Origin: Bernardetia sp. OM2101 | GTDB lineage: Bacteria; Bacteroidota; Bacteroidia; Cytophagales; Bernardetiaceae | Assembly (NCBI RefSeq): GCF_042180575.1 | Contig: NZ_CP170094.1 | Location: 1,912,604-1,976,603 of the forward strand | DNA length: 64,000 nucleotides | Direction: 5' to 3' | Shown: positions 3,450-63,995 of the stretch, one piece after another | How positions within the stretch are numbered: position 1 is the stretch's first letter | Layout: the number at the start of each line of letters is the position of its first letter | Program-made: the position numbers and the translations under genes | The notes under the pieces: model-generated | What the model saw: only the letters and a program-made list of their open reading frames with translations | What the model was told of the DNA's origin: nothing | The model's database searches: none

Positions 3450-3450
3450 T

Positions 3451-3800
3451 ACCAAAATAAAATCTATTTTTCCCTTTGGATTTCTCGTTCAAGTATTTTG
3501 CTTGGACGCTCTTTTTTGTCAGCATATGCTGACGAAATAGATAGATACAAGATAGAATCTTGCACCAGTGAAGTTTAATATTTATTTTGGTATAAATTTA
3601 GAAAATTCAAAAATAGTTCAGCAAAAAATGGTTTCAAATGTACATTTGAAACCATTTTTTATGACAAGATTATACCAAAATAAAAGTTATTTTTCCCTTT
3701 ACATATTTCTCGTTCAAGTATTTTGCTTGGACGCTCTTTTTTGTCAGTATATGCTGACGAAATAGATAGATACAAGATAGAATCTTGCACCAGTAAAAGA
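3451..3800. repeat. Two direct copies of a roughly 125-bp element, each containing a perfect 16-bp palindrome GTCAGCATATGCTGAC (second copy GTCAGTATATGCTGAC)
   Basis: 3451-3580 and 3672-3800 are near-identical (ataccaaaataaaa..tttttcccttt..tctcgttcaagtattttgcttggacgctcttttttgtcag.atatgctgacgaaatagatagatacaagatagaatcttgcaccagt). Confidence 0.85.
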
Positions 3801-25485: not shown

Positions 25486-26655
25486 ATGATAGATATTTCA
25501 AAAATTCCTTCGCCTTGTTTTGTTTTGGAAGAAAAACTCCTTCGCCGAAATTTAGAAATTTTGGATAGTGTACAAAAGCAAACAGGAGCGCATATTATTT
25601 GTGCTTTAAAAGGCTTTTCGATGTTTAGTACATTTCCTTTGGTGCGCCAGTATTTACATGGTTGTACATCTAGTTCGCTTTATGAAGCTCGTTTGGCTTT
25701 TGAGGAATTTGGACAAGAAGTTCACGCCTACGCACCTGCTTATACAGATAAAGAATTTGACGAAATAATGACGTATGTAAATCATATTAGTTTCAATTCT
25801 CTTTCTCAATATGAACGTTTCAAAGATAAATTAGCCAAAAACGAAGCAAAAACAAGCAAAAAAATATCAGCAGGTTTGCGTATCAATCCCGAATATTCAG
25901 AAGTAGAAACCGATTTATACAATCCTTGTGTGCCAGGTTCCAGGTTCGGACTCACTTTTGATAAAATAGGCGAAAACCTTCCAGAAGGAATTGAAGGATT
26001 ACATTTTCATACACTTTGTGAGCAAGGTTCGGATACATTAGAGCGCACACTTATTCATGTAGAAGAAAAATTTGGACATCTTTTGCATCAAGCAAAATGG
26101 CTTAATATGGGTGGTGGGCATCATATCACTAGAAAAGATTATGATGTAGAGCTTTTAGTAAAACTACTCAATAGAATAAAAGAAAAATATAATGTTCAAA
26201 TTATCCTAGAACCAGGGGAAGCTATCGGTTGGCAAACAGGTTATTTGGTGGCTTCTGTTCAAGATGTGATGGATAGTAGAGGGATTGAGGTCGCTATTTT
26301 AGATGTTTCTTTCACGGCTCACATGCCAGACTGTTTGGAAATGCCCTATAAACCTAAAATTTGGAATGCAGAAGATGCTACTACAAGTTCGAAGAGTGAA
26401 GGAAAATACGTTTATCGTTTTGGTGGCTCTACGTGTTTGGCAGGAGATTTTATCGGAATGGGAGATTATGCCTTTGAAAATGAATTGAAAATTAATGATA
26501 AAATAGTTTTTGATGATATGATTCATTACACAATGGTCAAAACTTCTACTTTTAATGGCGTTCCACATCCAAGTATTGGCATTTGGAAAGAAAGCAATGA
26601 ATTTCAATTAGTTAGAGAAATTGGTTATGAAATGTTTAAGAATAAATTGTCTTAG
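25486..26655 (+). CDS. nspC: Carboxynorspermidine/carboxyspermidine decarboxylase
   Basis: 389-aa PLP-fold decarboxylase with an NspC-type N-terminus (..PSPCFVLEEKLLRRNLEIL..). Confidence 0.7.
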   Translation: MIDISKIPSPCFVLEEKLLRRNLEILDSVQKQTGAHIICALKGFSMFSTFPLVRQYLHGCTSSSLYEARLAFEEFGQEVHAYAPAYTDKEFDEIMTYVNHISFNSLSQYERFKDKLAKNEAKTSKKISAGLRINPEYSEVETDLYNPCVPGSRFGLTFDKIGENLPEGIEGLHFHTLCEQGSDTLERTLIHVEEKFGHLLHQAKWLNMGGGHHITRKDYDVELLVKLLNRIKEKYNVQIILEPGEAIGWQTGYLVASVQDVMDSRGIEVAILDVSFTAHMPDCLEMPYKPKIWNAEDATTSSKSEGKYVYRFGGSTCLAGDFIGMGDYAFENELKINDKIVFDDMIHYTMVKTSTFNGVPHPSIGIWKESNEFQLVREIGYEMFKNKLS

Positions 26656-26717
26656 AACAAAAATAATTAAAGGTACGTTTATTTAAAAAATAAACGTACT
26701 CACAAATCAGAAAAAAT

Positions 26718-26933
26718 ATGAAAGACCAAGAAATATACTCAAAGCTATTTTTACTTAACTCTGACAACTTAAAACAAGAGTTATTAAATTTTATGGATTA
26801 TTTACTCACAAAACAGTTTTCAGAAACTAAGACAAAGAAAACTCCTCAATTTGGTTGTGCAAAAGGAAAATTCAGAATGAGTGATGATTTTGATGAACCT
26901 TTAGACCATTTTGACGAATATATGCCCAATTAA
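26718..26933 (+). CDS. Putative antitoxin (DUF2281-like) of the PIN toxin
   Basis: 71-aa protein immediately upstream of and co-directional with the PIN gene; C-terminal ..DDFDEPLDHFDEYM.. typical of DUF2281 antitoxins. Confidence 0.55.
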   Translation: MKDQEIYSKLFLLNSDNLKQELLNFMDYLLTKQFSETKTKKTPQFGCAKGKFRMSDDFDEPLDHFDEYMPN

Positions 26934-26945
26934 TCAAAAAATTGA

Positions 26946-27341
26946 ATGAATATTTTGCTAGATACACATGCTTTAATTTGGTTTTTTGAAGGCGATAAAA
27001 AATTAAGTAATAAGGCAAGAAAAACTATACAAGAACCGAAGAATACTATATTTGTGAGTGTAGTAAGTTTTTGGGAAATTGTTATTAAAATAAGTATAGA
27101 CAAATTGGAGATGGATTTGTCAATGGAAGAACTACAAAAATTAGTTTGGGAAAATGGAATACAAATCCTTCCTATAAAAATAGAACATACATTTTTGCTG
27201 AGAAATTTACCGTATTTTCATAAAGACCCATTTGATAGATTACTTTTTGTACAAGCATCATCTGAGAACATGAATTTGGTAAGTTGTGATGTTATTTTTG
27301 ATGATTACTTAGATAGCAGTTCAATTAGTAGAATTTGGTAG
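26946..27341 (+). CDS. PIN-domain toxin (VapC-like)
   Basis: MNILLDTHALIWFFEGDKKLS N-terminus with conserved Asp; 131 aa. Confidence 0.8.
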   Translation: MNILLDTHALIWFFEGDKKLSNKARKTIQEPKNTIFVSVVSFWEIVIKISIDKLEMDLSMEELQKLVWENGIQILPIKIEHTFLLRNLPYFHKDPFDRLLFVQASSENMNLVSCDVIFDDYLDSSSISRIW

Positions 27342-27366
27342 AACAAATTAAAAATCAATGATTAAA

Positions 27367-27519
27367 ATCGTTTTTGATGATATGATTCATTATACAATGG
27401 TCAAAACTTCTACTTTTAATGGAGTTTCTCATCCAAGTATCGGAATTTGGAAAGAAAGTAATGAATTTCAATTAGTTCGAGAAATTGGTTATGAAATGTT
27501 TAAGAATAAACTTTCTTAG
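27367..27519 (+). pseudogene. Orphan duplicate of the nspC 3' end (right-hand direct repeat of the cassette)
   Basis: Translates to ..VFDDMIHYTMVKTSTFNGVSHPSIGIWKESNEFQLVREIGYEMFKNKLS*, near-identical to the true nspC C-terminus; no upstream coding context. Confidence 0.8.
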
Positions 27520-27577
27520 AAAGAATCTGAAACACACTCTTTACAAAAAAAACTTTTTTCACAGAGTGTGTTTTTCC

Positions 27578-31930: not shown

Positions 31931-32070
31931 CCAATTACGAATTGTCAATTACGAATTACGATAAACTACTATTTCTATGCTAAATTTAGTAGTCGTAATT
32001 TTTAATTCATAGTTCGTAATTCGTAATCCGTAATTCGTAATTCGTAATCCGTAATTCGTAATTCGTAATT
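31931..32070. repeat. Array of TTCGTAA/TCCGTAA heptamer repeats with internal dyad symmetry between ftsL and ftsI
   Basis: ..caattacgaattacgataaactacta..tagtagtcgtaatttttaattc..gttcgtaattcgtaatccgtaattcgtaattcgtaatccgtaattcgtaattcgtaattg. Confidence 0.85.
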
Positions 32071-44152: not shown

Positions 44153-44293
44153 AGAAAAGCTGACTTTTCTTGAATAAGAAAAAAAATCAGCTAAAGAATT
44201 GTCCAATAAGTAAAAGTTTTGTAGCATAAACACAAAGATACATAGAGAATGGAAATAAGATAGTTAAAATTTACTTCCTTTTTTTCTATTTGT

Positions 44294-44803
44294 TTAGTCC
44301 CAATCTTGAGCCACAAATTTCATTCTTTTTCCGTCTTCTGAAGAAAGTGTTAGAAAATGTCCTTCTAATTTGTAAGTTATCATATCAGCAAGGTTTTTTC
44401 CAAAACTGGTTTCTAGTTCCATATTTTGCTGACAAGCTTTTCTTGTCATTCCTATTTGAGAGAACGTTATATTATTACTTAAATTAGTTTTTTCGTTGGT
44501 CGAAATTGAAAAAAAGATATTGTTACACCCCATAAATGCACTTCCTTGTGCAAGTCGCTTACCTTCTAAGTCAGTTGTAATTTCTTTTAGTTTGGTAAGG
44601 TCTAGTTTAGCTCCTACTTTTATGAAGTCTTCTTTTGAAAAATTATTTCCTTCATTTACATTCATATCTGTTAGCATCCAAACTCTAGCTAATTTTTGAT
44701 TTTCGGTAAGGTTTGTTGTTTTTTTATTGCTTTTGCAGCTTGAAAATAAAATGGCAGTTGAAAAAATTATAAGTAAAGATAAAAAAAATGGCTTGATATG
44801 CAT
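44294..44803 (-). CDS. META-domain (HslJ-like) lipoprotein
   Basis: Lipoprotein signal ..LFSSCKS and META-like ..LEGHFLTLSSEDGKRMKFVAQ.. segments. Confidence 0.55.
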   Translation of the reverse strand: MHIKPFFLSLLIIFSTAILFSSCKSNKKTTNLTENQKLARVWMLTDMNVNEGNNFSKEDFIKVGAKLDLTKLKEITTDLEGKRLAQGSAFMGCNNIFFSISTNEKTNLSNNITFSQIGMTRKACQQNMELETSFGKNLADMITYKLEGHFLTLSSEDGKRMKFVAQDWD

Positions 44804-46592
44804 CTTTGGTTTTAGTTTTAATGAATAATAATAATGTAGTTCATAAACTAACTTTTTGTGAATAATGTTTTTATAAAAAAACTAATCCTTACCATTCTAA
44901 AAATAGTAAGGATTAGGCTATATAAGATGCTTTCATAACGAAGGAACAAATTTTAAATAAAAATACAATAAATAAAACTGACTTTGTTCGCTGTTTTTTT
45001 GTACTAAATTGATTCTAACTCAAACTATCAAAAGATACATAACTACTAAGTTCGAATAAAATTGATTTTGTAGGATTAGACAGGATAAAATACAACTAGA
45101 TAAATTTCATTTTATCTGAAAAGTAAGCGAAAATGATGAATTATCGTGAAATAGATTTTGTAAAAGATATGAAAACAGATTTTACTTGTTTTCTTAATTA
45201 CTAATTACATTATCTGGTTTCCTGTGGGCTTACTATATTAGTTGAGACCTGAATTTAGAACAAGAGAAATACATCTTGAATTAAAATTAACATAAGTGTT
45301 GAGCAAATTTGTATGGTTTATTTGAAGCTCTAGGTGAAACATTAGTAAAGATACAAGTGAAGTTATTATTATCAATATTGAATAAATAATAACTGATTGA
45401 AATGTTTTTTGAATAAATGGCTTATCTTTTTAATTGTTTATAATAAGTATGAAAAAATAAGAATTACAAATTACTAGACTTCAAAATTAAAACTAATGTG
45501 GTTACTTTGATGCGAAAGGTTAAAAGCAAAGTATTTAGCTTTCATTACTCTCCAAAGGAATATATTTACATTACCATTTTGAATGTTTCATAAGAGTTCT
45601 GTTATCATATTTATACGTTTTCTTATTCGTACAAAATTTGAAACTGAAAATTGTTTTTAAAAGATTCTCACTATTTTTGTAGAGAGAATTTATAAATAGT
45701 TCTTTACCCTATTCATAACTACTATTTACTTAGATTTTACTTAAGCCTTTCCATCACTAATTTTCAAACAAAACATCAAGTGATTCACTATTTTTCACAG
45801 ATAAACGTTTTCTAAAAAACAAATCTGAATATTTTTTATACCATATAATTAAAATTAAATTAACAATACGAGTAAAAATGAAGTAGCTTTTCTTCCAAAA
45901 CCTAAAAAATCCCGATTGAATAATTTAGATGATTAATAGTAGAAATAACTACATTAAACTGCGAGTTACAGTAAATTTACTTTTATGCATATAACAAAAT
46001 TGTTTTTGTACTATTACCTTTTCAAACAAATTTGAAGGTCTCAAAAGTAATACTACTTTTTGTAGATGAGGTAAAACTTATCAAAAATTCAGTATAAAAA
46101 TTTCTAAAAAAGTATTGACGATTTCAATAAAAATTAGAAATAAAACATCAAAAGCAAATTGTTAAATATTCTTTCAAAAACACCTTTTGTGTCTTTTAAT
46201 TCTGTAACTTGATTCAATATAGAAATTAAATTCCGATTATGCAAGTTTTTATAGAATTATTTTTCAAAAACATCTCTAACTATTACTTCCAATTTACTTA
46301 CTTTGCAACGTAGTTTATTTTTCATTCGTAATGAATAAATTATTTTATTAAAATAAACTTTAACTAAAAATTATGTTCTATTATTAAAAAAGAAAAAGTC
46401 TAACTTTTCTGTTTTTTGCTTTTATTTTTTTGTCTGCTTCTTCTGCCACAGCCCAAATAAATGATTCTATCAATGATATTATTACTTCACGACTTCGCAG
46501 AAATGTAGAAATTCTTGCACTTGGAGTTCCTACTCACAACAGAAAAGGAACAATAAATACGCATAGAATTGATATAATCAAAAAAAGGTTTC

Positions 46593-51958: not shown

Positions 51959-51994
51959 TTTGAATTTATAAAAAAACAATTCTATTCTTATCCT

Positions 51995-52072
51995 TTATAA
52001 AACTCTCTACAAAATCAAAAAAAATTATGTAGAGAGTTTATTTTTGAGTAAATTTTGGAGAAAAATAAAATC
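51995..52072. repeat. Hairpin-containing element (ctctctacaaaatcaaaaaaaattatgtagagag plus T-rich tail), left direct repeat of the 52-kb cassette
   Basis: Near-identical second copy at 52578-52652; looks like the terminator of the upstream lipoprotein gene. Confidence 0.8.
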
Positions 52073-52074
52073 TT

Positions 52075-52464
52075 ATGAGTAATCAATGGAAAATAGACGA
52101 AAAATTAGCTAAAAAAGTCTATGCAAGAATAGAAAATTATACTGACGAAGAAAAACAAATTCTTTGGGATAAAATTAAAAATGAACTTCAAGAATATGAT
52201 TCTTTTACAGGAACTATTTTTGTAAAAGCTCCCTTTGGTGTTTTTTTGGATATTGGGAAAGAATTTCCTGCTTTGTTAAGAGTTGTAGCTATGAAGAATC
52301 TTAATGGTAGAAATTATCCCAATTACATGAATGATGAAATATGTAATCTAGGAGCAAAAATAAAAGTCTATTTTGTGGGGATGAGTGATGATGTAAAAGA
52401 TTTTATTGTTACAGAATATACAAAAGAACATATAGAATCTAATAAAGACCGTATTTTTACCTAA
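52075..52464 (+). CDS. Hypothetical 129-aa protein carried on a cassette flanked by duplicated terminator repeats
   Basis: ORF between the two repeat copies; no family recognised. Confidence 0.5.
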   Translation: MSNQWKIDEKLAKKVYARIENYTDEEKQILWDKIKNELQEYDSFTGTIFVKAPFGVFLDIGKEFPALLRVVAMKNLNGRNYPNYMNDEICNLGAKIKVYFVGMSDDVKDFIVTEYTKEHIESNKDRIFT

Positions 52465-52577
52465 AAAATAAAAATATTTTCTTCAAAAAATCGTATTTCT
52501 ACATTGAGAAATAACCCAAAACGTTTCGAATGTTTTAGCAAGGGGCATCGTCTATATGAGCATTTGGCGTTGGGTTT

Positions 52578-52652
52578 TATTCAAAACTCTCTACAAAATC
52601 AAAAAATTATGTAGAGAGTTTATTTTTGAGTAAATTTTGGGGAAAATAAATC
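52578..52652. repeat. Second copy of the hairpin/terminator element (right direct repeat), abutting the IS1 left inverted repeat
   Basis: aaactctctacaaaatcaaaaaattatgtagagagtttatttttgagtaaattttgg matches 52000-52058; followed directly by the IS1 inverted repeat at 52653. Confidence 0.8.
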
Positions 52653-55047: not shown

Positions 55048-55198
55048 ATTACGAATTTTCAATTACGACCTGCTAAAGCAGCGCAGCTAATTACGAATTG
55101 AAATACAAAAATAAACCTAGTATATTTATCATATATAAAAACAAAAGCTTATTGAGTATTCATTATTTTACTCTCGTAATTTTTAATTCGTAATTGAT
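55048..55198. repeat. TTCGTAA-family repeat region ending in the conserved motif cgtaatttttaattcgtaattga directly before the start codon
   Basis: aattacgaattttcaattacgacctgctaaagcagcgcagctaattacgaattg ... ctcgtaatttttaattcgtaattgatATG. Confidence 0.8.
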
Positions 55199-55552
55199 AT
55201 GAAAGAAGACAACATTATTCAGAAAAAGAGCTTTGATTTTGCTATCCGAATAGTGAATGCTTATAAGTTTTTGATTTCTAAACAAGAATATGTTTTGTCA
55301 AAACAATTATTACGTAGTGGAACTTCAATAGGTGCAAACGTAGAAGAGGCTATAGGTGGATATTCTAGGACAGATTTTGGTTTTAAATTATCCATTGCAT
55401 ACAAAGAAGCTAGAGAAACACTTTATTGGATTAAACTCTTAGAAGCAACTGACTATCTTTCAGAAGAAATGAGTAAAAGTCTGATTCAAGATGCAGAAGA
55501 AATCTGCAAAATAATTGGTAAAATACAAACTTCTTTAAAGAAAAATCAGTAA
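55199..55552 (+). CDS. Four-helix-bundle protein (23S rRNA intervening-sequence protein / Avd-like family)
   Basis: ..KKSFDFAIRIVNAYKFL...LLRSGTSIGANVEEA.. is the hallmark of the TIGR02436-type four-helix-bundle family. Confidence 0.75.
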   Translation: MKEDNIIQKKSFDFAIRIVNAYKFLISKQEYVLSKQLLRSGTSIGANVEEAIGGYSRTDFGFKLSIAYKEARETLYWIKLLEATDYLSEEMSKSLIQDAEEICKIIGKIQTSLKKNQ

Positions 55553-55559
55553 TAAATAA

Positions 55560-55640
55560 AACAGCGAAGCTAGTTAAGCTATAGAATTTCGTAATTAAAA
55601 ATTCGTAATCCGTAATTGACCAATTCGTAATTAAATTAAG
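55560..55640. repeat. TTCGTAA-family repeat region (cgtaattaaaaattcgtaatccgtaattgaccaattcgtaatt)
   Basis: Read directly; variant of the conserved roughly 30-nt motif. Confidence 0.8.
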
Positions 55641-55653
55641 TTTTTAACGGACT

Positions 55654-56883
55654 TTGAATCCGTTTCAAAAAAACAATACTATGAATATAACTACAAAAAA
55701 TCCAGAAAACCCTAATTCGAAAGGAAGAGTTTTGGTCGCCATGAGTGGTGGAATTGATAGTTCGTTGGCAGCCGTTTTGTTGCACGAACAAGGTTATGAA
55801 GTCATCGGAATGACGATGAAAACGTGGGATTATGCTGCTTCGGGTGGCAATATGAAAAAAGAAACGGGCTGTTGTAGCTTGGATTCTATCAATGATGCCC
55901 GTTCTATTTCGGTTGATTTGGGTTTCCCTCATTATATTTTGGACATTCGTTCCGAATTTGGCGATTACGTCATCGATTATTTTACAGAAGAATATATGGA
56001 AGGCAGAACGCCAAATCCATGTGTACTTTGCAATACGCATATCAAATGGGACGCACTTTTAAGACGTGCTGATAATTTGGGTTGTCAGTATATTGCGACA
56101 GGTCATTATGCCAATATTAGAGAGGAAAACGGACGTTTTGTAGTTTCGAAAGGTGTCGATACCAAAAAAGACCAATCGTATGTTTTGTGGGGTGTTTCGC
56201 AAGAAAGTTTGAGCCGTACTATGCTTCCTTTGGGAAATCTTACCAAAGCACAAATTCGTCAAATGGCATTGGATAGAGGTTTTGATGAGCTTGTCAAAAA
56301 ATCAGAATCGTATGAAATCTGTTTTATTCCTGATAATGATTACCGTAGTTTCTTGAAAAGAAGAGTTCCAGATATGGACGAAAAAGTAGGAAAAGGAAAC
56401 TTCATAATGACAACTGGAGAAGTAGTCGGACAACATGAAGGTTATCCGTTTTATACGGTCGGACAGCGCAAAGGATTAGGAATTGCACTCGGCGAACCTG
56501 CTTATGTAGTAGAAATTAAAAAAGATACCAATGAAGTTATTTTAGGTTTCAAAGATGATTTGTATAGAGATGGAATGATTGTCAAAAAATTAAATCTTCA
56601 AAAATATGCAAACATTGAAGGCGATTTACTGACCACTACAAAAGTTCGTGTACACCACGCAGGCGCACCAGCAACCATCACACAAAGCGAAGACGGACAA
56701 GAACTTACTGTTCTTTTTCACGAGCCTGTCGATGCCATTGCCCCTGGACAATCTGCCGTTTTTTATGATGGCGATGATGTCATTGGTGGAGGTTGGATAG
56801 TTTCTTCCTTCCAACAAATTGGAAACGAACGAATAGAGAAAAACTTGTTTCCTACGGAAGTTTATAAGCCGAAGACGGTTTAA
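55654..56883 (+). CDS. mnmA: tRNA-specific 2-thiouridylase MnmA; alternative start at 55681
   Basis: PP-loop VLVAMSGGIDSS, catalytic Cys region, C-terminal beta-barrel; about 400 aa. Confidence 0.9.
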   Translation: MNPFQKNNTMNITTKNPENPNSKGRVLVAMSGGIDSSLAAVLLHEQGYEVIGMTMKTWDYAASGGNMKKETGCCSLDSINDARSISVDLGFPHYILDIRSEFGDYVIDYFTEEYMEGRTPNPCVLCNTHIKWDALLRRADNLGCQYIATGHYANIREENGRFVVSKGVDTKKDQSYVLWGVSQESLSRTMLPLGNLTKAQIRQMALDRGFDELVKKSESYEICFIPDNDYRSFLKRRVPDMDEKVGKGNFIMTTGEVVGQHEGYPFYTVGQRKGLGIALGEPAYVVEIKKDTNEVILGFKDDLYRDGMIVKKLNLQKYANIEGDLLTTTKVRVHHAGAPATITQSEDGQELTVLFHEPVDAIAPGQSAVFYDGDDVIGGGWIVSSFQQIGNERIEKNLFPTEVYKPKTV

Positions 56884-56974
56884 TATATTTACCGAACGGT
56901 TCGCTTTGAGTGAACTGTTCGGTATTTTTTTGTATCTTAGATAAAGAGTTTTATAACTTAAAAGATAAAATAAA

Positions 56975-57229
56975 TTGATTATGGCAAAAATAGAACTACT
57001 ATTAAAAGACCTTGAAAACCTAAATCGTGATGAAATTTGGGTTGTCTGGGAATTTCTACAACAAAAAATAAAATCTTATACTCTAAATCCTGCTCAATCC
57101 GTAGAAAAAGAAGAAACAAAAAGACTACAATTTGATGATTTTTCGTTTGGACGTACTAGAGAAATTTTGAAAGGAAAAAATCTGAATTTGAGTGATGCTG
57201 TTATTGAAGAAAGGAGAAGTTACGAATGA
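56975..57229 (+). CDS. Putative antitoxin of the PIN toxin
   Basis: 84-aa ORF overlapping the PIN gene start by 4 nt (ATGA coupling). Confidence 0.5.
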   Translation: MIMAKIELLLKDLENLNRDEIWVVWEFLQQKIKSYTLNPAQSVEKEETKRLQFDDFSFGRTREILKGKNLNLSDAVIEERRSYE

Positions 57230-57651
57230 ATTTATTTTTAGATACTTCTGCATTATTGAAATTATACGATAATGAAATAGGCAGTGATGAAATGGAACTT
57301 TTATTCACTACCAATAAAATTGAAAAAATCTATCTCTCTTCTCTTACGATTTTAGAATTAGAATCTGCTATCAGAAAAAAACAACGTATGAAATTACTTA
57401 CAGAAAGTGAAACTGAAGAAATTTCAAGGCTTTTTACTGAAGATTCTAGCAAATTTACTTGGATAGAGATTGATGATAAAATTTTACAAAGAGCATTTCT
57501 ATTATTAAAAAAATACGGAATAGAAGGTTTGAGAACTTTAGATGCTATTCAATTATCAAGTGCCATTGAAGTAAAAAATGATGTTGCTTTGAATATTACT
57601 TATGATAAATTGCTAAAAAGTTTATTTGAAAAAGAAGATTTGAATAACTAA
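57226..57651 (+). CDS. PIN-domain toxin (VapC-like)
   Basis: MNLFLDTSALLKLYDNEIGSDEME.. N-terminal PIN motif with conserved Asp. Confidence 0.75.
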   Translation: MNLFLDTSALLKLYDNEIGSDEMELLFTTNKIEKIYLSSLTILELESAIRKKQRMKLLTESETEEISRLFTEDSSKFTWIEIDDKILQRAFLLLKKYGIEGLRTLDAIQLSSAIEVKNDVALNITYDKLLKSLFEKEDLNN

Positions 57652-57660
57652 AAAAATGAC

Positions 57661-57735
57661 TTCCAACAAATTGGAAACGAACGAATAGAGAAAAATTTGT
57701 TTCCTACGGAAGTTTATAAGCCTAAAACGGTTTAG
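57661..57735 (+). repeat. Orphan duplicate of the last 75 bp of mnmA (right direct repeat of the cassette)
   Basis: ttccaacaaattggaaacgaacgaatagagaaaaatttgtttcctacggaagtttataagcctaaaacggtttag compared with 56809-56883. Confidence 0.85.
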
Positions 57736-57760
57736 AGTTTCTTTTTAGGTAAAAAAAAGT

Positions 57761-59015
57761 GGTTCTTCCGACAATTTAGCGATAATTTCTTAATTTAGCC
57801 TTTCTATGGATACTAACACAATAGCAATTTTATTAGGTTTTTCAGATTTTTCAGTAACGAAAATAGAATCTTCTCCACTTCGCTTAACTATTTATGGAGA
57901 AAGTAATTTAGCCGATTCTATTTGTCCTAATTGCTTGAAAAAGTGCAATAAAGTGACTTCTACTTCAGAACGTATTGTTCGTGACCGAAATATTTTAGAC
58001 AAAGAGGTTTATTTACACTTAACTTCTCGTCAATTTCATTGTCAAGATTGTACTCGTTACTTTCAAGAAGTTTTTAGTTTTGTTTCTAAGCAAAAAAATC
58101 AAACTCATCGTTTGGAAAAATATCTTTATTTATGTTTGAAAGATAGCAGTTTCAAAGAAGTAGCTATCCGAGAAAACATACTTTGGGATGTTTTAGATGG
58201 TATTTTTAAAACCTATAGTAAACGTGAGATAAAAAAACACCTAGATTATTTTCCTCGACGTTTAGGTATTGATGAATTTGCTTACAAAAAAGGAAAAAAG
58301 GAATATGCTGTTGTTTTAGTAGATTTAGATACAGGTCAAGTTTGGGATATTTTAGAATACCGTAATAAAGAGTATTTAAAAGCCTATTTTTTATCCAAAG
58401 GCGAAGTTTTTTGTACTAGTATAGAAGTATTTTCTTGTGATATGTGGGAGGGATTTTCAAATACAGCAAAAGAAGTATTTCCTAACGCTGATGTAGTAAT
58501 AGATCGCTTTCATTTTTTTCAGCATTGTAATAAAGTGCTAGATAGCATTCGTAAAGAATTACGACGAAAAGATGATAAAAACGTTCATTTCAAGCAAATA
58601 AAATGGCTTTTATACAAGGCATGGAAAGACCTTACTTATAAAGAAAGACGAGTTTTACTTAAAGCGTTTAGGTTTAGCTCAACGCTTAGACAGGTGTATT
58701 TTATGAAAGTGGAATTACAAAATATATTTAATACTGATTTGAGTAAACAAGAAGCTAAAAAACTACTAGACCAATGGATAGAAGAAGCTCAAAAAATAAA
58801 TCATAAGGCTCTAAATAGATTTATAAATACGTTTAATTCTTGGAAAAATGATATTATTAATTTCTTCAAAGATAGATATTCTAACGGAATAGTAGAGGGA
58901 ATTAATAATAAAATTAAGACCCTCAAAAGGAGTGGGTATGGGTTTAGAAACTTTCAAAATTTTAGATTGAGAATGATAGTCAAATTCATATAATCGCTAA
59001 AAAGTCGGAAGAGCC
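57761..59015 (+). mobile_element. ISL3-family insertion sequence (about 1255 bp) with 23-bp inverted repeats and a perfect 8-bp target duplication AAAAAAGT
   Basis: Left IR GGTTCTTCCGACAATTTAGCGAT, right ATCGCTAAAAAGTCGGAAGAGCC; aaaaaagt at 57753-57760 and 59016-59023. Confidence 0.85.
57806..58993 (+). CDS. ISL3-family transposase
   Basis: N-terminal zinc-finger region (CPNC..C..; HCQDC) and DDE_Tnp_ISL3-like core, 395 aa. Confidence 0.8.
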   Translation: MDTNTIAILLGFSDFSVTKIESSPLRLTIYGESNLADSICPNCLKKCNKVTSTSERIVRDRNILDKEVYLHLTSRQFHCQDCTRYFQEVFSFVSKQKNQTHRLEKYLYLCLKDSSFKEVAIRENILWDVLDGIFKTYSKREIKKHLDYFPRRLGIDEFAYKKGKKEYAVVLVDLDTGQVWDILEYRNKEYLKAYFLSKGEVFCTSIEVFSCDMWEGFSNTAKEVFPNADVVIDRFHFFQHCNKVLDSIRKELRRKDDKNVHFKQIKWLLYKAWKDLTYKERRVLLKAFRFSSTLRQVYFMKVELQNIFNTDLSKQEAKKLLDQWIEEAQKINHKALNRFINTFNSWKNDIINFFKDRYSNGIVEGINNKIKTLKRSGYGFRNFQNFRLRMIVKFI

Positions 59016-59224
59016 AAAAAAGTTATATTTGAGCTATAAAATATTAAAGAAAATGTCCTATGGGGGCTAACGGAAGCTACAACCTCCAAATTGAAACATT
59101 TGGAATTGGGTTCAGGTTTTTTTCAAGAAATCCTGTAAAATGAAAACTTATTTTTATTTGTACTTGCCGTGTCAAAAGTATTCGCTGTTTACAGTGAATA
59201 CTTTTTTTATAAAAAAAAATAATT

Positions 59225-60730
59225 ATGGAAAAAATAATTCTAGGTGACATACAGAAAGAAGCTGAACAGAAAGCTGCTCAATATAATTTGTATCATAATT
59301 ATTTACATCTTGAGCACAAAAGAAATTGTCGTAGGTTGAAAAATCCTCCTGCAAAAGATGTTAGAACACCTGAAGAGTGGGGAGAAGACCGTAAATTTAA
59401 TCCATTTTATGTGTTAAAACACAAAAAGCAGATAGCAAGATCAATATCTAAGAAACTTTTAGACAAAAATTATAAGCCTAATCCTCCATATATAAAAATA
59501 ATACCTAAGAAAGGAGGAGGTACAAGAACAATAAGTATTTATCAAATCCCTGATTCTGCCGTATCTGATAGGTTTTATTATAACCTTTTAGGAAAAAATA
59601 GACATCGGTTTAGCTCATTGTCTTATGCTTATCGTAATGATAGAAATATACATTTTGCAATTCAAGATATAGCACAAGAGCTAACAAGTATTCCACGCAT
59701 TTATGTAGCTGAATTTGATTTTAGCAACTTTTTTGGGTCTATAGATCATAATTATTTGTTTCATCAATTAAAACAAAACTCTTTTTTAGTTAGTGAGCTA
59801 GAAATACATGTTATTGAATCTTTCTTAGAACCCTATAAAGAAGATAAGAAGGGAATCCCACTTGGTACTTCTATTTCACTATTTCTTGCTAATATAGTTT
59901 GTTGGGAACTAGATAGAAAGTTTGAAGATGCTGGGATTCGTTTTGCAAGATATGCTGATGACACGATAATATGGTCAAGAGATTATTCAAAAATCTCTAA
60001 AGCATTTGATATAATTGCAGATTTTTCTAAAGAAACAGGTATTTCACTAAACTATAAAAAATCTGATGGTATAAGTCTACTACAAAAGACAGGGTTAAAA
60101 TCGGAGTTTCACAATTCAAAAGAATTCATAGAATTCTTAGGATATAAAATATCATGTGAGAATGTGGGAATTAAAGATGCTTCTATATACAAAATAAAAA
60201 AGCAAATTTCTTATCTTTTGTATCGTAATTTAATTCAACCTATTAGAACTAAATCATTCAAAGCAATGAATCTTCCTGCAAATAATATGGATAAAGACTT
60301 TATAACTGCTATTATGCAGATAAGAAGATATTTGTATGGTAACCTAACTGAAATTACTCTCAAAAAGTATTTGAATGGTACATATAAACGATTTTCTTTT
60401 AAAGGAATTATGAGCTTTTATCCGTTAATAACGGATGAAAATCAGATGATTGAAATGGATAAATGGCTTTTGAGTACAGTAATGAACGTTTTAAATAAAC
60501 GTAAAAAGCTATTAAAAAGTCATATACCTACTTTTAACGAAGATCAATTTCCTTTTAATTGTAATAAAGATGATTTGATAAATGAATGTAGAAATAAATT
60601 GGTTTATCGTAAAAAAGGATTAATTGAATTACCCTCTTTCTTAAGAATATACAAGGCTATAAAAAAAGGTGTAGTAAATGAAGGAATAGAAAAAGTTATG
60701 CATCCGAATTCAAACTCATATTATGAATAA
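59225..60730 (+). CDS. Stand-alone reverse transcriptase (retron/Abi/defence-associated-type RT domain with N- and C-terminal extensions)
   Basis: RT motifs: 1-2 IIPKKGGGTRTISIYQIPDSAVSDRFYYNLL; 2a SYAYRNDRNIHFA; 3 YVAEFDFSNFFGSIDH; 4 GIPLGTSISLFLANIVC; 5 ARYADDTIIW; 6 LNYKKSDGI; 7 FLGYKIS; no endonuclease or maturase-like domain recognised. Confidence 0.8.
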   Translation: MEKIILGDIQKEAEQKAAQYNLYHNYLHLEHKRNCRRLKNPPAKDVRTPEEWGEDRKFNPFYVLKHKKQIARSISKKLLDKNYKPNPPYIKIIPKKGGGTRTISIYQIPDSAVSDRFYYNLLGKNRHRFSSLSYAYRNDRNIHFAIQDIAQELTSIPRIYVAEFDFSNFFGSIDHNYLFHQLKQNSFLVSELEIHVIESFLEPYKEDKKGIPLGTSISLFLANIVCWELDRKFEDAGIRFARYADDTIIWSRDYSKISKAFDIIADFSKETGISLNYKKSDGISLLQKTGLKSEFHNSKEFIEFLGYKISCENVGIKDASIYKIKKQISYLLYRNLIQPIRTKSFKAMNLPANNMDKDFITAIMQIRRYLYGNLTEITLKKYLNGTYKRFSFKGIMSFYPLITDENQMIEMDKWLLSTVMNVLNKRKKLLKSHIPTFNEDQFPFNCNKDDLINECRNKLVYRKKGLIELPSFLRIYKAIKKGVVNEGIEKVMHPNSNSYYE

Positions 60731-60821
60731 TATTTCCTTGCGCTTATTAGTGTTTTAGCATAGTGACATTTTTTTTCACGAAGCTATTTTAACTTTCATT
60801 TTTTCCTCAAAAAAAACTTTG

Positions 60822-60905
60822 TCAGTAGTTTGCCTAAGCAAACTCTGACAATAGTTAAAAGCAGTATAATCTAAACTATTGTCAAAGTCTGATTACAGAC
60901 TATTG
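60822..60905. repeat. Two adjacent REP-like hairpins of the ttgtcag...ctgacaa family
   Basis: ctttgtcagtagtttgcctaagcaaactctgacaatag and ctattgtcaaagtctgattacagactattgacaaag. Confidence 0.6.
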
Positions 60906-60945
60906 ACAAAGTTCAAATAATTTTTACATAAAAACACACACAACT

Positions 60946-61305
60946 ATGGCACTAACAGAACAAGAAATTAAAGAAATCATTGAAAATGAAATCATTGTAG
61001 ATGCTTATACTGATGAAGAAGCAGAAACAGGCTGGGCAACATACATGGAAGACAATATCAATTTTCCATTTGAAGCAGAATATTTAGTAAGGAGAGCATC
61101 TAAACCAAACGAATGGAAAAAAGTCAAAATTATAGAGAATTATACAAACTCTTCAAATTATGAAGGAGGAGAGTTTTATTTATCAGCTCTACTTGAAGAT
61201 GTGGATATGGTTATTCCAGTAGAAATAAGTGAACTAAGAAATGTAGAAGCAGATGAAGATACATTAGATACTTTTCAAATATGGGAATACAGAAATAAAT
61301 ATTAA
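60946..61305 (+). CDS. Small strongly acidic hypothetical protein (119 aa)
   Basis: 29 D/E against 10 K/R counted in the translation; downstream of and co-directional with the RT. Confidence 0.5.
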   Translation: MALTEQEIKEIIENEIIVDAYTDEEAETGWATYMEDNINFPFEAEYLVRRASKPNEWKKVKIIENYTNSSNYEGGEFYLSALLEDVDMVIPVEISELRNVEADEDTLDTFQIWEYRNKY

Positions 61306-61619: not shown

Positions 61620-61656
61620 ACCGTTCGTAATTTTTAATTCGTAATCCGTAATTGTA
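61620..61656. repeat. TTCGTAA-family motif copy (cgtaatttttaattcgtaatccgtaattg)
   Basis: Fourth occurrence of the conserved roughly 30-nt motif. Confidence 0.8.
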
Positions 61657-61658
61657 TC

Positions 61659-63995
61659 TTATTCTCTCAATAAAGAAACCCAACCTTTCAAAATCAAAAC
61701 TTCATCAGTTGGATTCAAACGATTAAAAGTAACTTTGACTTGGAAATAATACATTCCAGAAGGCATTTCTTTTCCGTTGTTATTTTCTCCATTCCAATCA
61801 ATAAAGACATTATTATCTTCATCGCTTGTAGTTTCAAAAACCAAATCTTCCCAACGGCTATAAATTTTGGTTTCTACATTTTTGACAAAAGCAGGACAGT
61901 CTAATGCTCTAAATGTATCATTTATTCCGTCGCCATTTGGTGTAAATACATTTGGTAGCGCATAATTTGGACAGTTATCATTACATACTTGATTACTAAA
62001 TGTACTCTCATTTCCAGACGCATCAAGAGCTGTAACAACATAACAACCTGCCACAGAACGAACTTGTTCGTGTGTATAAGTCGTGTCAGTAGTATTTATC
62101 AAAAGCTGCAATGAATCATTAATTTGGGCTTTGAAGTATAAATTATAACTACTCACTTCCAAATCACAATCAGGCGAATAATCATTTTGCCATCTCAATT
62201 CATTTCTAAAAAGAGAATCACTACAATAAATTGGATCTTCAAAATTAATGGTTTCACAAATCAAAGAGTCTAAAAACAAGGTTGTAGGCGAACAAGGAGG
62301 CGTTTCGTCAAGTGGAACAATACATACTTTTTGAGACTTGTTCAAAAGTGGTTCTGGCAAACCTTCTTTATTGTAACTTCCTTGTGTTGTAACAAAATAA
62401 CAATATTCTACCTTGTCTAAAAGCTCTGTATCAGTATAAGAAAACGAGCCACTAAAGACATTTATACTATCCAAAAGAACAAAATCAGTTCCATCAGCAT
62501 CCGTTTGACGATAAATATAATGTTGTGGAAAACGTGAATCAGTATTGTTCCAAGGCACTTCTGCACGCCAACTTAAAGTAGCTGCATTTACTAAAGGAGT
62601 TGCATTCAAACGAACAGAACTTGCCACAGCCGAAGAATCTACCAAATTATCATTTGAATAAAAAAGAACTCTATAATTATAAACTTCTTCTTCAGTATTC
62701 AGATTTGTGTCTCTAAAAGTAGTGTCATTTTCAGCAAAACGTTCTCCTAATTGCGTATAATTCTGAGTTCCAGAGAAACCATCTGCACGGAAAAGTTCAT
62801 ATTCATAAGGTCTTGGAAAATCTTCTTCTATGAGGTCTTGGGGTTTTGTCCATTCCACTTGCATTTCTCCATTTTCGGTGTCTGTTTCTTCTACACTTAC
62901 TTTTGTAATATACGGTGCATTGGTTGGAATAATTACACAAACTTCGTCAGAAACATAACTTTCTCCTCCTGCTGGATTTGGGAATCTTGCAAAAATACGG
63001 TAGCAATATGTTTTTCCTCGTTCTAATCCTTCTCCATTATTATCATCTAAATAGAATAGATTACCAATTTCATTTGTTCCAATTTGTGTATAACCTGTAT
63101 AAGCAGGCAAACCTGTTTCACATGTATCAGGGTTAAACTCAAAAGAGCCTACTCTTCGCCAAATAGTCATTTCACTAGCATTCGGACACTGATAAGAAAA
63201 CCAACTCAATGAAATGCTATTATCAACTGTATTGACATCAGCAATGAGCGTATCAGGTTTTGGACCTACAACTCGGATTTGCCACGTTTTTAAATCTACT
63301 AATTTGTTGCTGCTGGGTTGAGGTTGGTCTTCTGCTTTAAAAGTAACAGCATAAGGTTGCAAACGTACATCTTCACAGACTGTTTGCCAATCAAAAACAC
63401 CCTTTTCTTCTCCATTTGGAGGCTGAATATTCAAAACATTAAAATTCGCATAATTTCTTGGTGGAACAGATTGTAATACATTTGCATCTCTAAATAATGC
63501 ACTATAAGCAAAAAGTTTAACAAAATCTTCATCAGGGTCTGTTCCTGTAATTGTATCTCTTAAAAATGCTCCTGCCGTAACACAGGTATCTCTAGGAATT
63601 TCTAAAATAGGACGTTTATTTGGATTATCTCTTACAATAATCTGCATATCACGGTTTACTTGTCCAATCAAAATACCTTCTCGCCATTCTTGAACAATAA
63701 AAGCTACATTAAACTGCCCTGTTCGCCCAGGTGTATTCCAAACCAAATCTCCTGTAATGGGGTCAAGAGTAGCAATAGTTGCTCCTCCCTCTTCACGTTC
63801 TCCCCCAAATGAAGGGTCATCTAACAGACTAAAACCCTCAACTGGCGTATTTATATCACGTTTGGGAGTAACAAAAATATATGCTAAACTATCACCATCA
63901 GCATCATACGCCCCTGGATTATGAATAAATTTTTCACCTACACGAGCAAAGTCAATCGGTGGAACAAGCAAAATAGGTGACCTATTTAATCCCAA
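61659..63995 (-). CDS. Large cell-surface protein with T9SS/gliding-motility-type C-terminal sorting domain; the 5' end lies beyond the window
   Basis: C-terminal ..YALPNVFTPNGDGINDTF.. plus repeated beta-rich modules; the ORF is open to the window edge. Confidence 0.7.
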   Translation of the reverse strand: MGLNRSPILLVPPIDFARVGEKFIHNPGAYDADGDSLAYIFVTPKRDINTPVEGFSLLDDPSFGGEREEGGATIATLDPITGDLVWNTPGRTGQFNVAFIVQEWREGILIGQVNRDMQIIVRDNPNKRPILEIPRDTCVTAGAFLRDTITGTDPDEDFVKLFAYSALFRDANVLQSVPPRNYANFNVLNIQPPNGEEKGVFDWQTVCEDVRLQPYAVTFKAEDQPQPSSNKLVDLKTWQIRVVGPKPDTLIADVNTVDNSISLSWFSYQCPNASEMTIWRRVGSFEFNPDTCETGLPAYTGYTQIGTNEIGNLFYLDDNNGEGLERGKTYCYRIFARFPNPAGGESYVSDEVCVIIPTNAPYITKVSVEETDTENGEMQVEWTKPQDLIEEDFPRPYEYELFRADGFSGTQNYTQLGERFAENDTTFRDTNLNTEEEVYNYRVLFYSNDNLVDSSAVASSVRLNATPLVNAATLSWRAEVPWNNTDSRFPQHYIYRQTDADGTDFVLLDSINVFSGSFSYTDTELLDKVEYCYFVTTQGSYNKEGLPEPLLNKSQKVCIVPLDETPPCSPTTLFLDSLICETINFEDPIYCSDSLFRNELRWQNDYSPDCDLEVSSYNLYFKAQINDSLQLLINTTDTTYTHEQVRSVAGCYVVTALDASGNESTFSNQVCNDNCPNYALPNVFTPNGDGINDTFRALDCPAFVKNVETKIYSRWEDLVFETTSDEDNNVFIDWNGENNNGKEMPSGMYYFQVKVTFNRLNPTDEVLILKGWVSLLRE

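What the first reader, a model, noticed from the sequence alone, without database searches (positions are those of the whole stretch)
56809..57735. Second toxin-antitoxin cassette with the same architecture: antitoxin/PIN pair inserted after mnmA with a 75-bp duplication of the mnmA 3' end
56809-56883 (the final codons and stop of mnmA) is repeated at 57661-57735 with 4 mismatches, flanking a 0.78-kb cassette. An independent second instance of the target-3'-end-duplication cassette structure argues for a recurrent, specific mechanism rather than a chance duplication.
Basis: seen in the sequence. Interest (0 to 1): 0.8.

Follow-up and report, generated by a model that had tools for sequence, protein, structure and literature searches.

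The report
Toxin-antitoxin islet flanked by duplicated mnmA end
A small toxin-antitoxin gene pair sits just after the tRNA-modification gene mnmA between two copies of that gene's last 25 codons; the pattern is real and recurs in this genus, but it looks like a by-product of ordinary recombination between strain variants, not a new insertion machine.

Summary
Window 56808-56883 (last 25 codons and stop of mnmA) recurs at 57660-57735 with 4 mismatches, all synonymous third-position changes. The two copies flank a 776-nt VapBC-type toxin-antitoxin (TA) islet.

The architecture recurs. It occurs at nspC in this window, at aspS (a MazEF pair) in another Bernardetia genome, and at a DNA-alkylation-repair gene in a third, where the TA is inverted. 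One relative has three mnmA-end copies separating a TA cassette from a non-TA cassette.

Nothing points to a dedicated mechanism:
- No recombinase, terminal inverted repeats, attC-like fold or shared junction motif was found.
- The repeats are 60-176 nt long.
- In three cases homology stops at the target's stop codon, where strain alleles diverge.
- TA-free single-copy alleles exist, and so does a TA-bearing contig with no second copy directly after the TA.
- The same TA|repeat junction is joined to different downstream alleles in two genomes.

Best reading (about 45% confidence): two alleles of a variable region were joined head to tail by one rare insertion-duplication event. The islet then spread by host homologous recombination, with the displaced copy as a portable right-hand homology arm, and toxin addiction opposes loop-out. 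A trans-acting integrase is not excluded. I rate it a new variant of a known kind, of moderate interest.

The parts
55654..56883 (+). mnmA (tRNA 2-thiouridine synthase), the target gene. The likely start is the ATG at 55681. The last 25 codons are a lineage-specific C-terminal tail beyond the conserved MnmA domain.
   Evidence: NCBIfam NF001138 E 5.6e-126, with the alignment ending at residue 382 of 409. The tail is conserved at protein level in a 79%-identical Bernardetiaceae MnmA (L006).
56808..56883 (+). R1: the functional copy of the mnmA 3' end (25 codons + TAA)
56890..56931 (+). Intrinsic terminator hairpin (TACCGAACGGTTCG...CGAACTGTTCGGTA + T-run). In the TA-free strain L085 the same hairpin type follows mnmA directly. 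Hairpins of this type recur elsewhere in the genus.
56981..57229 (+). Putative antitoxin, 82 aa, with no family match. It overlaps the toxin gene by ATGA and is present upstream of the toxin in L001-L003, L086 and L087 (partially in L004).
57226..57651 (+). PIN-domain (VapC-type) toxin, 141 aa
   Evidence: Pfam PF01850 E 3.2e-11; homologues named VapC by their sources
57660..57735 (+). R2: displaced second copy of the mnmA 3' end. It starts 8 nt after the toxin stop and ends in TAG. It is not part of any long ORF.
57760..59016 (+). ISL3-family insertion sequence (27-nt terminal inverted repeats, transposase 57806-58993). It is a later insertion into an A-run 17-24 nt after R2, with an AAAAAAG duplication.
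59225..60730 (+). DRT9 defence reverse transcriptase. This is the cargo of the allele that follows R2.
   Evidence: PADLOC PDLC03766 E 2.7e-210, full length
60946..61305 (+). CcbP-like gene with its promoter region (about 60800-60945). This is the conserved right-hand part of the variable region in the window and L005, and it is truncated in L001.
26483..26657 (+). nspC cassette, R1: functional 3' end of nspC (gene 25486-26655)
26718..27341 (+). nspC cassette cargo: DUF2281/VapB antitoxin (26718-26933) and PIN toxin (26946-27341), preceded by a hairpin (about 26661-26692)
27346..27521 (+). nspC cassette, R2: displaced nspC 3' end. It starts 4 nt after the toxin stop. A 1-nt indel lies in its leftmost 17 nt, and the sequence after it is the native downstream sequence.

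Best explanation
The feature is a compact type II toxin-antitoxin islet (small antitoxin + PIN/VapC toxin with its own upstream terminator). It lies in a strain-variable region directly behind the conserved gene mnmA.

The two copies of the mnmA end mark the point where two different alleles of this region are joined head to tail. The first allele is mnmA-R1-terminator-TA. The second allele restarts 75 nt before the mnmA stop and runs R2 - DRT9 - ccbP.

Proposed history:
1. Inferred: one rare insertion-duplication event made the first TA|R2 junction. This could be one homologous plus one illegitimate join of incoming DNA, or a single-crossover integration of a circularised fragment.
2. Partly shown, partly inferred: the structure then spread among strains by ordinary host homologous recombination. 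The left crossover falls inside mnmA. The right crossover falls between R2 and the recipient's own mnmA end, so R2 acts as a portable right-hand homology arm that works whatever lies downstream. Each transfer replaces the right part of R2 with the recipient's formerly functional end.
3. Inferred: loss of the cassette by R1 x R2 loop-out, or by replacement with a TA-free allele, is opposed by post-segregational killing. Repeat-flanked insertions therefore persist mainly when they carry a TA.

No element-encoded recombinase is involved.
For: Shown:
- TA-free, single-copy alleles exist: L085 is mnmA-R-terminator and L005 is mnmA-R-hairpin2 followed by other genes. At nspC, relative L002 has nspC followed directly by the sequence that follows R2 in the window.
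- The window and L001 share the same TA|R2 junction, but after the R2 stop codon they continue into different alleles. The window continues into DRT9. L001 continues into hairpin2 + 87-aa + 224-aa genes, and that hairpin2 sequence matches what follows the single mnmA copy in L005.
- L001 has three mnmA-end copies. The third is followed by an L085-type terminator and preceded by a truncated ccbP-like gene, so whole allele fragments are concatenated.
- At mnmA, nspC and the alkylation-repair gene, homology between the copies stops at the target's stop codon, which is where strain alleles diverge. At aspS weaker similarity continues into the terminator.
- At nspC, 9 of the 10 codons that differ between R1 and R2 are synonymous. 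Relative to outgroup L002, the R2 lineage carries 4 synonymous and 1 non-synonymous codon change. R2 therefore evolved as coding sequence. Its leftmost 17 nt are degraded (3 mismatches + 1 indel), and the left edge of the aspS repeat also carries an indel. This fits a right part that is renewed and a left part that is not.
- No integrase or transposase lies in the variable regions of the window, L001, L003, L005 or L085. No terminal inverted repeats pair the cassette ends, no attC-like fold was found, and no shared junction motif was found.
- Unrelated TA families (two PIN types at 26% identity, and MazF) sit at four different target genes in either orientation.
- No viral carrier and no plasmid-borne copy of the cassette was found.

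From the literature:
- TA-only islets between core genes, lacking mobile-element genes and proposed to spread by homologous recombination at flanking core genes, are described in PMC13617665.
- Insertion rates by transformation fall geometrically with insert size (PMC5850275). That would favour very compact cassettes.
- One-sided homologous plus illegitimate integration is an established process (PMC3240628).
Against: - The founding event is not observed, and its expected signature is missing. There is no microhomology of 3 nt or more at the mnmA or nspC TA|R2 junctions.
- The right end of the TA module lies within 0-20 nt of the toxin stop in every context. That is tidier than random illegitimate joins predict, and compaction by selection is only an assumption.
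- Apparently independent junctions in mnmA fall within about 12 nt of each other, next to the palindrome TTCCAAcaaaTTGGAA. These are TA|R2 in the window and L001, the remnant in L086, and ccbP'|R3 in L001. This hints at a preferred break or crossover site.
- In the window and L001, R1 and R2 share a rare ACG codon that other strains lack. That fits gene conversion or in-situ duplication better than renewal of R2 by a foreign allele.
- With only 4 differences at mnmA, two of them probably on the coding copy, the synonymous signal at this locus alone is weak.
- Whether Bernardetia is naturally transformable, and whether this TA is addictive, is unknown.
Confidence: 0.45

Rival explanations
1. 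Site-specific integration. The repeats are attL/attR of small integrase-less elements (satellites or decayed islands). An integrase encoded elsewhere in the genome mobilises them in trans. Each element carries a copy of the target gene's 3' end so that integration restores the gene, as phages and integrative elements do at tRNA and protein-gene ends. Arrays arise by successive integrations.
For: - Direct repeats made of the target's 3' end that stop at the end of the gene are the classical att signature (established knowledge of tyrosine-integrase elements).
- L001 has a tandem array of three copies.
- Junctions at mnmA cluster within about 12 nt beside a short palindrome.
- The cassette ends are tight.
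- Allelic, synonymous divergence of the copies is also what an element-borne mimic of the gene end would show.
Against: - No integrase lies in or next to any cassette or variable region examined.
- At least four different target genes have no common core sequence, so several cognate integrases would be needed, each with its own satellite.
- The right end of one 'element' in L001 is a truncated chromosomal gene (ccbP-like), not a defined element end.
- The same TA has several different right-hand junctions.
- Repeats of intergenic terminators flank other small cassettes.
Confidence: 0.2
2. Self-propagating circle. The mobile unit is an 852-bp circle (R + terminator + TA) released by recombination between R1 and R2. 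It re-integrates into a naive mnmA end by a single (Campbell-type) homologous crossover, which regenerates the duplication each time.
For: - The product geometry is exactly that of insertion-duplication by a single crossover.
- Unit sizes are similar: 852, 863-864, 736 and 966 nt.
- Either cargo orientation is allowed.
- No recombinase is needed, and 60-176 nt of homology is within reach of RecA-type recombination (general knowledge).
Against: - No circle or empty-site product can be observed with these data.
- A non-replicating circle of under 1 kb must pass between cells.
- The model does not explain how the first circle arose.
- It does not explain L001's second cassette, which ends in a truncated gene.
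- It is not needed to explain the same junction sitting with different downstream alleles, which a double crossover explains equally well.
Confidence: 0.15
3. In-situ long target duplication. An unknown insertion process, such as repair of widely staggered nicks or a target-primed mechanism, placed a discrete TA cassette into the gene end and duplicated 60-176 nt of the resident sequence. The copies diverged afterwards.
For: - Within a genome R1 and R2 are very similar and share a rare codon variant in the window and L001.
- The cassette ends are tight.
- A reverse transcriptase gene lies nearby.
- At the alkylation-repair gene the copies differ by 8 non-synonymous and 4 synonymous changes, as free drift would give.
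Against: - Repeat lengths vary threefold, and in three cases the repeat ends exactly at a stop codon. A sequence-blind staggered cut does not predict that.
- The nspC copies differ almost only synonymously and the displaced copy keeps its frame.
- There are no terminal inverted repeats and no transposase.
- The RT is a DRT9 defence enzyme, and L001 shows the same structure with no RT gene among the called genes of the 8.9-kb locus.
Confidence: 0.08

Closest known systems
Chromosomal TA islets: TA operons alone between two core genes (PMC13617665 and the work it cites)
   Same: A TA pair lies alone behind a housekeeping gene with no mobile-element genes. It shows a presence/absence polymorphism among close relatives, and spread by homologous recombination at conserved flanks is the proposed route.
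   Different: Here the islet is bracketed by a 60-176-nt duplication of the coding 3' end of the upstream gene. A text search of that paper found no mention of this ('direct repeat' 0 hits). The paper's closest case is a 24-bp res-like palindrome duplicated on both sides of one TA.
Integrase-mediated genomic islands, prophages and integrase-less cis-mobilisable elements at the 3' ends of tRNA or protein genes
   Same: Direct repeats consist of the target's 3' end, the gene is restored by the proximal copy, and tandem arrays of elements are separated by att copies.
   Different: No integrase was found, the cassettes are under 1 kb, there are several unrelated targets with no common core, and at least one cassette ends in a truncated chromosomal gene. 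Membership is not supported (see the membership test).
Integron gene cassettes, which often carry TA pairs in chromosomal integrons
   Same: Compact, recombinase-less cassettes in either orientation, with a repeat immediately after the ORF, arranged in arrays.
   Different: The repeat is a copy of a host gene end, not an attC hairpin. No structured fold was found, and no intI or attI was seen.
Insertion-duplication by single crossover, and homology-facilitated illegitimate recombination (PMC3240628)
   Same: The product has one homologous side and a duplicated or illegitimately joined other side. Only host functions are needed.
   Different: These are known as laboratory or rare events, not as a recurrent natural architecture tied to TA cargo. 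The expected microhomology is not seen at the two window junctions.
Free-standing homing-endonuclease genes in fungal mitochondria that bring a replacement 3' end of the host gene and leave the old end downstream (own knowledge, not checked here)
   Same: The mobile insert supplies a functional copy of the gene's C-terminal coding region, and the displaced original end remains as a downstream relic with mostly silent differences.
   Different: Those inserts encode a DNA endonuclease that makes the targeting break. A PIN toxin is expected to be an RNase, and nothing here shows DNA cleavage.

Membership tests
Type II toxin-antitoxin, VapBC type | Toxin with a PIN domain | tested here: met
   PF01850 E 3.2e-11 over residues 4-128. 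Homologues are named VapC by their sources.
Type II toxin-antitoxin, VapBC type | Small antitoxin gene immediately upstream in one operon | tested here: met
   The 82-aa ORF 56981-57229 overlaps the toxin start by ATGA. The pair is conserved together in L001, L002, L003, L086 and L087.
Type II toxin-antitoxin, VapBC type | Antitoxin belongs to a recognised antitoxin family | tested here: not met
   No Pfam, NCBIfam or PADLOC match, and no similarity to the DUF2281 VapB of the nspC cassette. This lowers certainty about the antitoxin's type, not about the pair's organisation.
Type II toxin-antitoxin, VapBC type | Toxicity neutralised by the antitoxin; addiction | not testable with these tools
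   Needs expression experiments.
Integrase-mediated integrative element / cis-mobilisable element | Direct repeats (att) at both ends that include the target's 3' end | tested here: met
Integrase-mediated integrative element / cis-mobilisable element | Integrase gene in the element or adjacent to the array | tested here: not met
   None among the ORFs of the window's cassettes and mnmA-ccbP gap, or in the variable regions of L001, L003, L005 and L085. A trans-acting enzyme elsewhere in the 5.9-Mb genome could not be searched.
Integrase-mediated integrative element / cis-mobilisable element | Fixed crossover position or common core at independent insertions | tested here: inconclusive
   At mnmA, junctions lie within about 12 nt of each other. 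Different targets share no core.
Integron cassette | attC: an imperfect hairpin recombination site after the ORF | tested here: not met
   The repeats at mnmA, nspC, aspS and the alkylation-repair gene fold little or no better than shuffles (z between -2.0 and +0.6).
Integron cassette | intI integrase and attI next to the array | tested here: not met
   Not found in the loci examined.
Transposon / insertion sequence with target-site duplication | Terminal inverted repeats, a transposase, and a short duplication of fixed length | tested here: not met
   No inverted repeats pair the cassette ends and there is no transposase in the cassette. The duplications are 60-176 nt long and diverged. The neighbouring ISL3 is a separate, complete element with its own 7-bp duplication.
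Diversity-generating retroelement (variable repeat at the gene end, template repeat, RT) | Mismatches between the repeats confined to adenines of the template copy | tested here: not met
   Only 1 of 4 (mnmA) and 2-3 of 11 (nspC) mismatches involve an A in either candidate template. The RT is a DRT9 defence enzyme, and no RT gene is called in L001's 8.9-kb locus.
Homology-facilitated illegitimate recombination product | Microhomology of 3-10 nt at the illegitimate joint | tested here: not met
   None at the mnmA or nspC TA|R2 junctions. A possible ATNNTT overlap exists at the ccbP'|R3 junction of L001. Later mutation of the non-coding joint cannot be excluded.

The most novel reading that the evidence does not exclude
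These are homology-armed selfish cassettes, a recombinase-free kind of mobile element. A TA pair carries a copy of the 3' end of a conserved host gene as a targeting arm. It can therefore home behind that gene in any strain through the host's own homologous recombination, regardless of what lies downstream. Toxin addiction blocks both loop-out and replacement by TA-free alleles. The tight cassette ends and the recurrence across TA families and target genes would then be adaptations of the element and not accidents.
Probability: 0.3. Interest if true: 0.7.

Novelty: new variant of a known kind. Interest (0 to 1): 0.5.

Why it matters
TA-only islets behind core genes are common, but how they get there and why they persist is still debated. 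Here the islets keep a legible record of their arrival: a displaced copy of the target gene's coding end that differs from the working copy mostly by silent changes.

If the displaced copy works as a portable homology arm, selfish or defensive cassettes could move between strains through variable hotspots with no recombinase. That would also link TA addiction to resistance against curing by recombination.

The idea is directly testable in Bernardetia, where several independent examples exist (mnmA, nspC, aspS and an alkylation-repair gene). If a trans-acting recombinase is responsible instead, the loci would mark a family of very small satellite elements. In either case the duplicated gene ends are useful markers for dating and tracing cassette gain in hotspots that also hold defence genes such as DRT9.

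Tried and rejected
- **Diversity-generating retroelement** (repeat at the gene end plus a nearby RT). The mismatches are not adenine-specific. The RT is DRT9. L001 shows the same structure with no RT gene called.
- **Transposon with target duplication.** There are no terminal inverted repeats and no transposase. The repeats are long, variable and diverged.
- **Integron-like cassette.** There is no attC-like fold and no integrase.
Only A-rich hexamers are shared, and nothing is in register.
- **Microhomology at the junctions.** None was found at the two window cassettes.
- **Phage or plasmid carrier.** The repeat and the PIN have no match in viral contigs. In plasmids only the terminator hairpin matched, on a Bernardetia chromid.
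- **Known RNA families.** There are no Rfam matches anywhere in the window.
- **The mnmA tail as element-derived sequence.** Rejected, because the tail is conserved at protein level in a 79%-identical Bernardetiaceae MnmA that has no cassette.
- **Assembly artefact.** Rejected. The structure is in an isolate genome, the same architecture occurs in a second complete Bernardetia replicon, and related metagenome contigs show it too.
- **Protein-level scan for older, degraded tail duplications in the window.** It found only the mnmA and nspC cases.
- **Metagenome scan for the repeat.** It returned a single contig (L085), so a population-level test of crossover positions was not possible.
- **L098** (a Cyclobacteriaceae relative of the nspC-type TA). 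Its flanking repeat is a GC-rich structured element, so I did not count it as the same phenomenon.
- **Literature.** Searches found no description of TA cassettes flanked by duplicated target-gene 3' ends. I could not open Pandey & Gerdes 2005, which from memory mentions direct repeats flanking some TA loci.
Full report
**1. The observation**

The window comes from Bernardetia (Cytophagales). Its 131-aa PIN protein is 100% identical to one from Bernardetia sp. OM2101 on a 5.9-Mb contig.
- mnmA (55654/55681-56883) is a clear MnmA equivalog.
- Its last 76 nt (56808-56883) recur at 57660-57735 with four mismatches. All four are at third codon positions and synonymous, including TAA/TAG.
- A 30-mer of the repeat occurs twice, against 0 expected.
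- The 776 nt between the copies hold a strong intrinsic terminator (56890-56924), an 82-aa ORF with no family match, and a PIN-domain ORF that overlaps it by ATGA. No terminator-like site was detected between the toxin stop and R2, 8 nt later.
- The sister cassette at nspC is equally real. It has a 176-nt repeat at 92% with one indel, a DUF2281/VapB antitoxin and a PIN toxin, and R2 starts 4 nt after the toxin stop.

**2. The repeated segment is native mnmA sequence**

The repeat covers exactly the C-terminal tail that lies beyond the conserved MnmA domain; the HMM alignment ends at residue 382 of 409. Most of the Cytophagales MnmA matches recovered stop aligning near that point. The tail is nevertheless conserved at protein level in a 79%-identical Bernardetiaceae gene that has only a terminator behind it (L006). 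The repeat is therefore mnmA coding sequence and not an element end.

**3. What relatives show at mnmA**

| Locus | Arrangement after mnmA |
|---|---|
| L085 | R - terminator, then unrelated DNA; no TA, one copy |
| L005 (96% MnmA) | R - a different hairpin ('hp2') - two genes - ccbP; no TA, one copy |
| L003/L004 | R - terminator - TA - 262-aa gene; no second copy directly after the TA |
| L086 | R - terminator - TA - short remnant of the mnmA end - a second, L085-type terminator |
| L001 | R1 - terminator - TA \| R2 - hp2 - 87-aa - 224-aa - ccbP promoter - first 17 ccbP-like codons \| R3 - terminator |
| Window | R1 - terminator - TA \| R2 - (ISL3) - DRT9 - ccbP |

Three points follow.
- The gap between mnmA and the next conserved genes is a hotspot with many alleles.
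- The TA-bearing genomes look like two or three such alleles joined head to tail. Each later allele restarts about 75 nt before the mnmA stop.
- The window and L001 share the same TA|R2 junction but diverge immediately after the R2 stop codon into different alleles.

No integrase or transposase is present in any of these regions, apart from the separate, complete ISL3.

**4. The architecture elsewhere**

- In L002, a 3-Mb contig of a related species, a 71%-identical TA lies in inverted orientation behind a DNA-alkylation-repair gene. Two 135-nt copies of that gene's end flank it, and both end in a stop codon at the same position.
- The same contig has nspC followed directly by the sequence that follows R2 in the window. 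This is an empty nspC site.
- In the 602-kb chromid of Bernardetia sp. Wsw4-3y2, aspS is followed by an antitoxin + MazF pair and then a 60-nt copy of the aspS end that overlaps the MazF stop codon.
- In L091 an 83-nt repeat that includes the end of a TonB-receptor gene brackets two non-TA ORFs next to an nspC-type TA.
- Small non-TA ORFs bracketed by duplicated intergenic terminators occur in the window (51994-52069 / 52576-52650) and in the chromid.
- These structures are not common in the other sequence examined. The self-comparison listed a scatter of other direct repeats in about 1.2 Mb of other Cytophagales mnmA loci, some of them apparent paralogous or tandem repeats; I did not check whether any duplicates a gene end. 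About 250 kb of the chromid holds two. A protein-level scan of the window finds only the mnmA and nspC tail duplications.

**5. What the copies say about origin**

A fresh target duplication followed by drift of the non-functional copy should give mostly non-synonymous differences and frame damage.
- At nspC, 9 of 10 differing codons are synonymous. With L002 as outgroup, the displaced copy's own lineage shows 4 synonymous and 1 non-synonymous codon change. It evolved as coding sequence, so it is an allele that once served as a real gene end.
- Only the leftmost 17 nt of the nspC R2 are degraded, with an indel. The left edge of the aspS repeat has an indel too.
- At mnmA, nspC and the alkylation-repair gene, similarity stops at the stop codon. 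At aspS weaker similarity continues into the terminator. Stopping at the stop codon is what two alleles sharing the gene but not the flank would show.
- Caveats: at mnmA there are only four differences, and two variants are probably on the coding copy. R1 and R2 of the window and L001 share a rare ACG codon, which suggests gene conversion or a shared in-situ origin. The alkylation-repair copies differ by 8 non-synonymous and 4 synonymous changes.

**6. Mechanism**

The data exclude these readings:
- a transposon-type duplication;
- an integron (no attC-like fold);
- a diversity-generating retroelement (mismatches not at adenines; the RT is DRT9);
- phage carriage; a plasmid search matched only the terminator hairpin, not the cassette.

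The cassettes share no junction motif, and neither window junction has microhomology.

The reading that fits most facts has three steps.
1. A rare insertion-duplication joined a TA-bearing allele to a resident allele.
2. The structure then spread by ordinary double crossover, with mnmA as the left arm and R2 as a portable right arm. This explains four things: one junction combined with different downstream alleles, renewal of the right part of R2 by functional alleles, decay of its left edge, and the absence of any recombinase.
3. TA addiction opposes loop-out between the repeats and replacement by TA-free alleles. That would explain why such unstable duplications are seen mainly around TA pairs.

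The literature supports the framework:
- TA-only islets thought to move by recombination at core flanks (PMC13617665);
- geometric decline of insertion rate with insert size (PMC5850275);
- one-sided homologous plus illegitimate integration (PMC3240628);
- the idea that recombination cures genomes of selfish inserts (PMC4795794).

**7. What this reading does not explain**

- The right end of the TA module lies within 0-20 nt of the toxin stop in every context.
- Apparently independent junctions in mnmA fall within about 12 nt of each other, beside the palindrome TTCCAAcaaaTTGGAA.

Both facts are what a site-specific process would produce. A trans-acting integrase with integrase-less satellites therefore stays a serious rival (about 0.2), as does a circle-based cycle using host recombination (about 0.15). 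I could not search the rest of the genome for recombinases. The short-read contigs L003 and L086 both begin inside the repeat, so their copy number is uncertain.

**8. Verdict**

- The TA islet itself is an ordinary kind of object.
- The bracketing by diverged copies of the target gene's coding end recurs across TA families and target genes in one genus. I could not find this described, and I rate it a new variant of a known kind with moderate interest (0.5).

Noticed in passing
window 59225-60730 (leader 59017-59224); ISL3 at 57760-59016: The reverse transcriptase downstream of the cassette is a full-length DRT9 defence RT (PADLOC E 2.7e-210). An ISL3 insertion sequence with a 7-bp AAAAAAG duplication sits just upstream of its leader, 17-24 nt after R2. 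The mnmA-ccbP gap is thus a defence/TA hotspot with at least five different alleles among relatives.
   Followed up: partly
window 55048-55609 (gene 55199-55552): The 23S-rRNA-IVP (four-helix-bundle) gene upstream of mnmA is itself a presence/absence cassette. It is present in the window and L001 and absent in L005 and L085. It is bracketed by inverted blocks of the heptamer repeat TCGTAAT/ATTACGA. Similar heptamer arrays occur at 31993-32069 and 61625-61659.
   Followed up: partly
window 51994-52069 and 52576-52650, ORF 52075-52464: A third repeat-flanked mini-cassette: a 129-aa ORF with a weak S1-like match. It lies between two copies (92% with gaps) of an intergenic terminator hairpin that follows a CpeT/PKD-domain gene. 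The cargo is not a TA and the repeat is non-coding.
   Followed up: partly
window 3442-3569 and 3666-3794: An intergenic direct duplication of about 130 nt at 93% identity, 224 nt apart start to start, beginning at the stop codon of ORF 3030-3449. No ORF of 90 aa or more lies between the copies.
   Followed up: no
L001 4380-4530: The promoter and first 17 codons of a ccbP-like gene (with ATG mutated to ATA) are fused in frame to a third copy of the mnmA tail. A possible 6-nt overlap (ATNNTT) lies at the joint.
   Followed up: partly
L092 (NZ_CP147018.1) 43771-46283: The Bernardetia sp. Wsw4-3y2 'plasmid' carries housekeeping genes (secA, aspS, prfA, gyrB, uvrA), so it is really a chromid. Its aspS is followed by a MazEF-type TA flanked by a 60-nt duplication of the aspS end.
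   Followed up: yes
window 56890-56924; L001 2196-2225, 4531-4561, 8066-8108; NZ_CP147018.1 553534-553569: The terminator hairpin after R1 (CCGAACGGTTCG...CGAACCGTTCGG) belongs to a hairpin type that recurs at several loci and replicons in the genus. It may be a REP-like element.
   Followed up: no
L098 23-105 and 3423-3506: In a Cyclobacteriaceae MAG, a 3.3-kb block ending in an nspC-type TA is bracketed by an 84-nt, 98%-identical, GC-rich and very strongly folding element (z = -8.4). This is probably a different kind of repeat from the gene-end duplications.
   Followed up: partly
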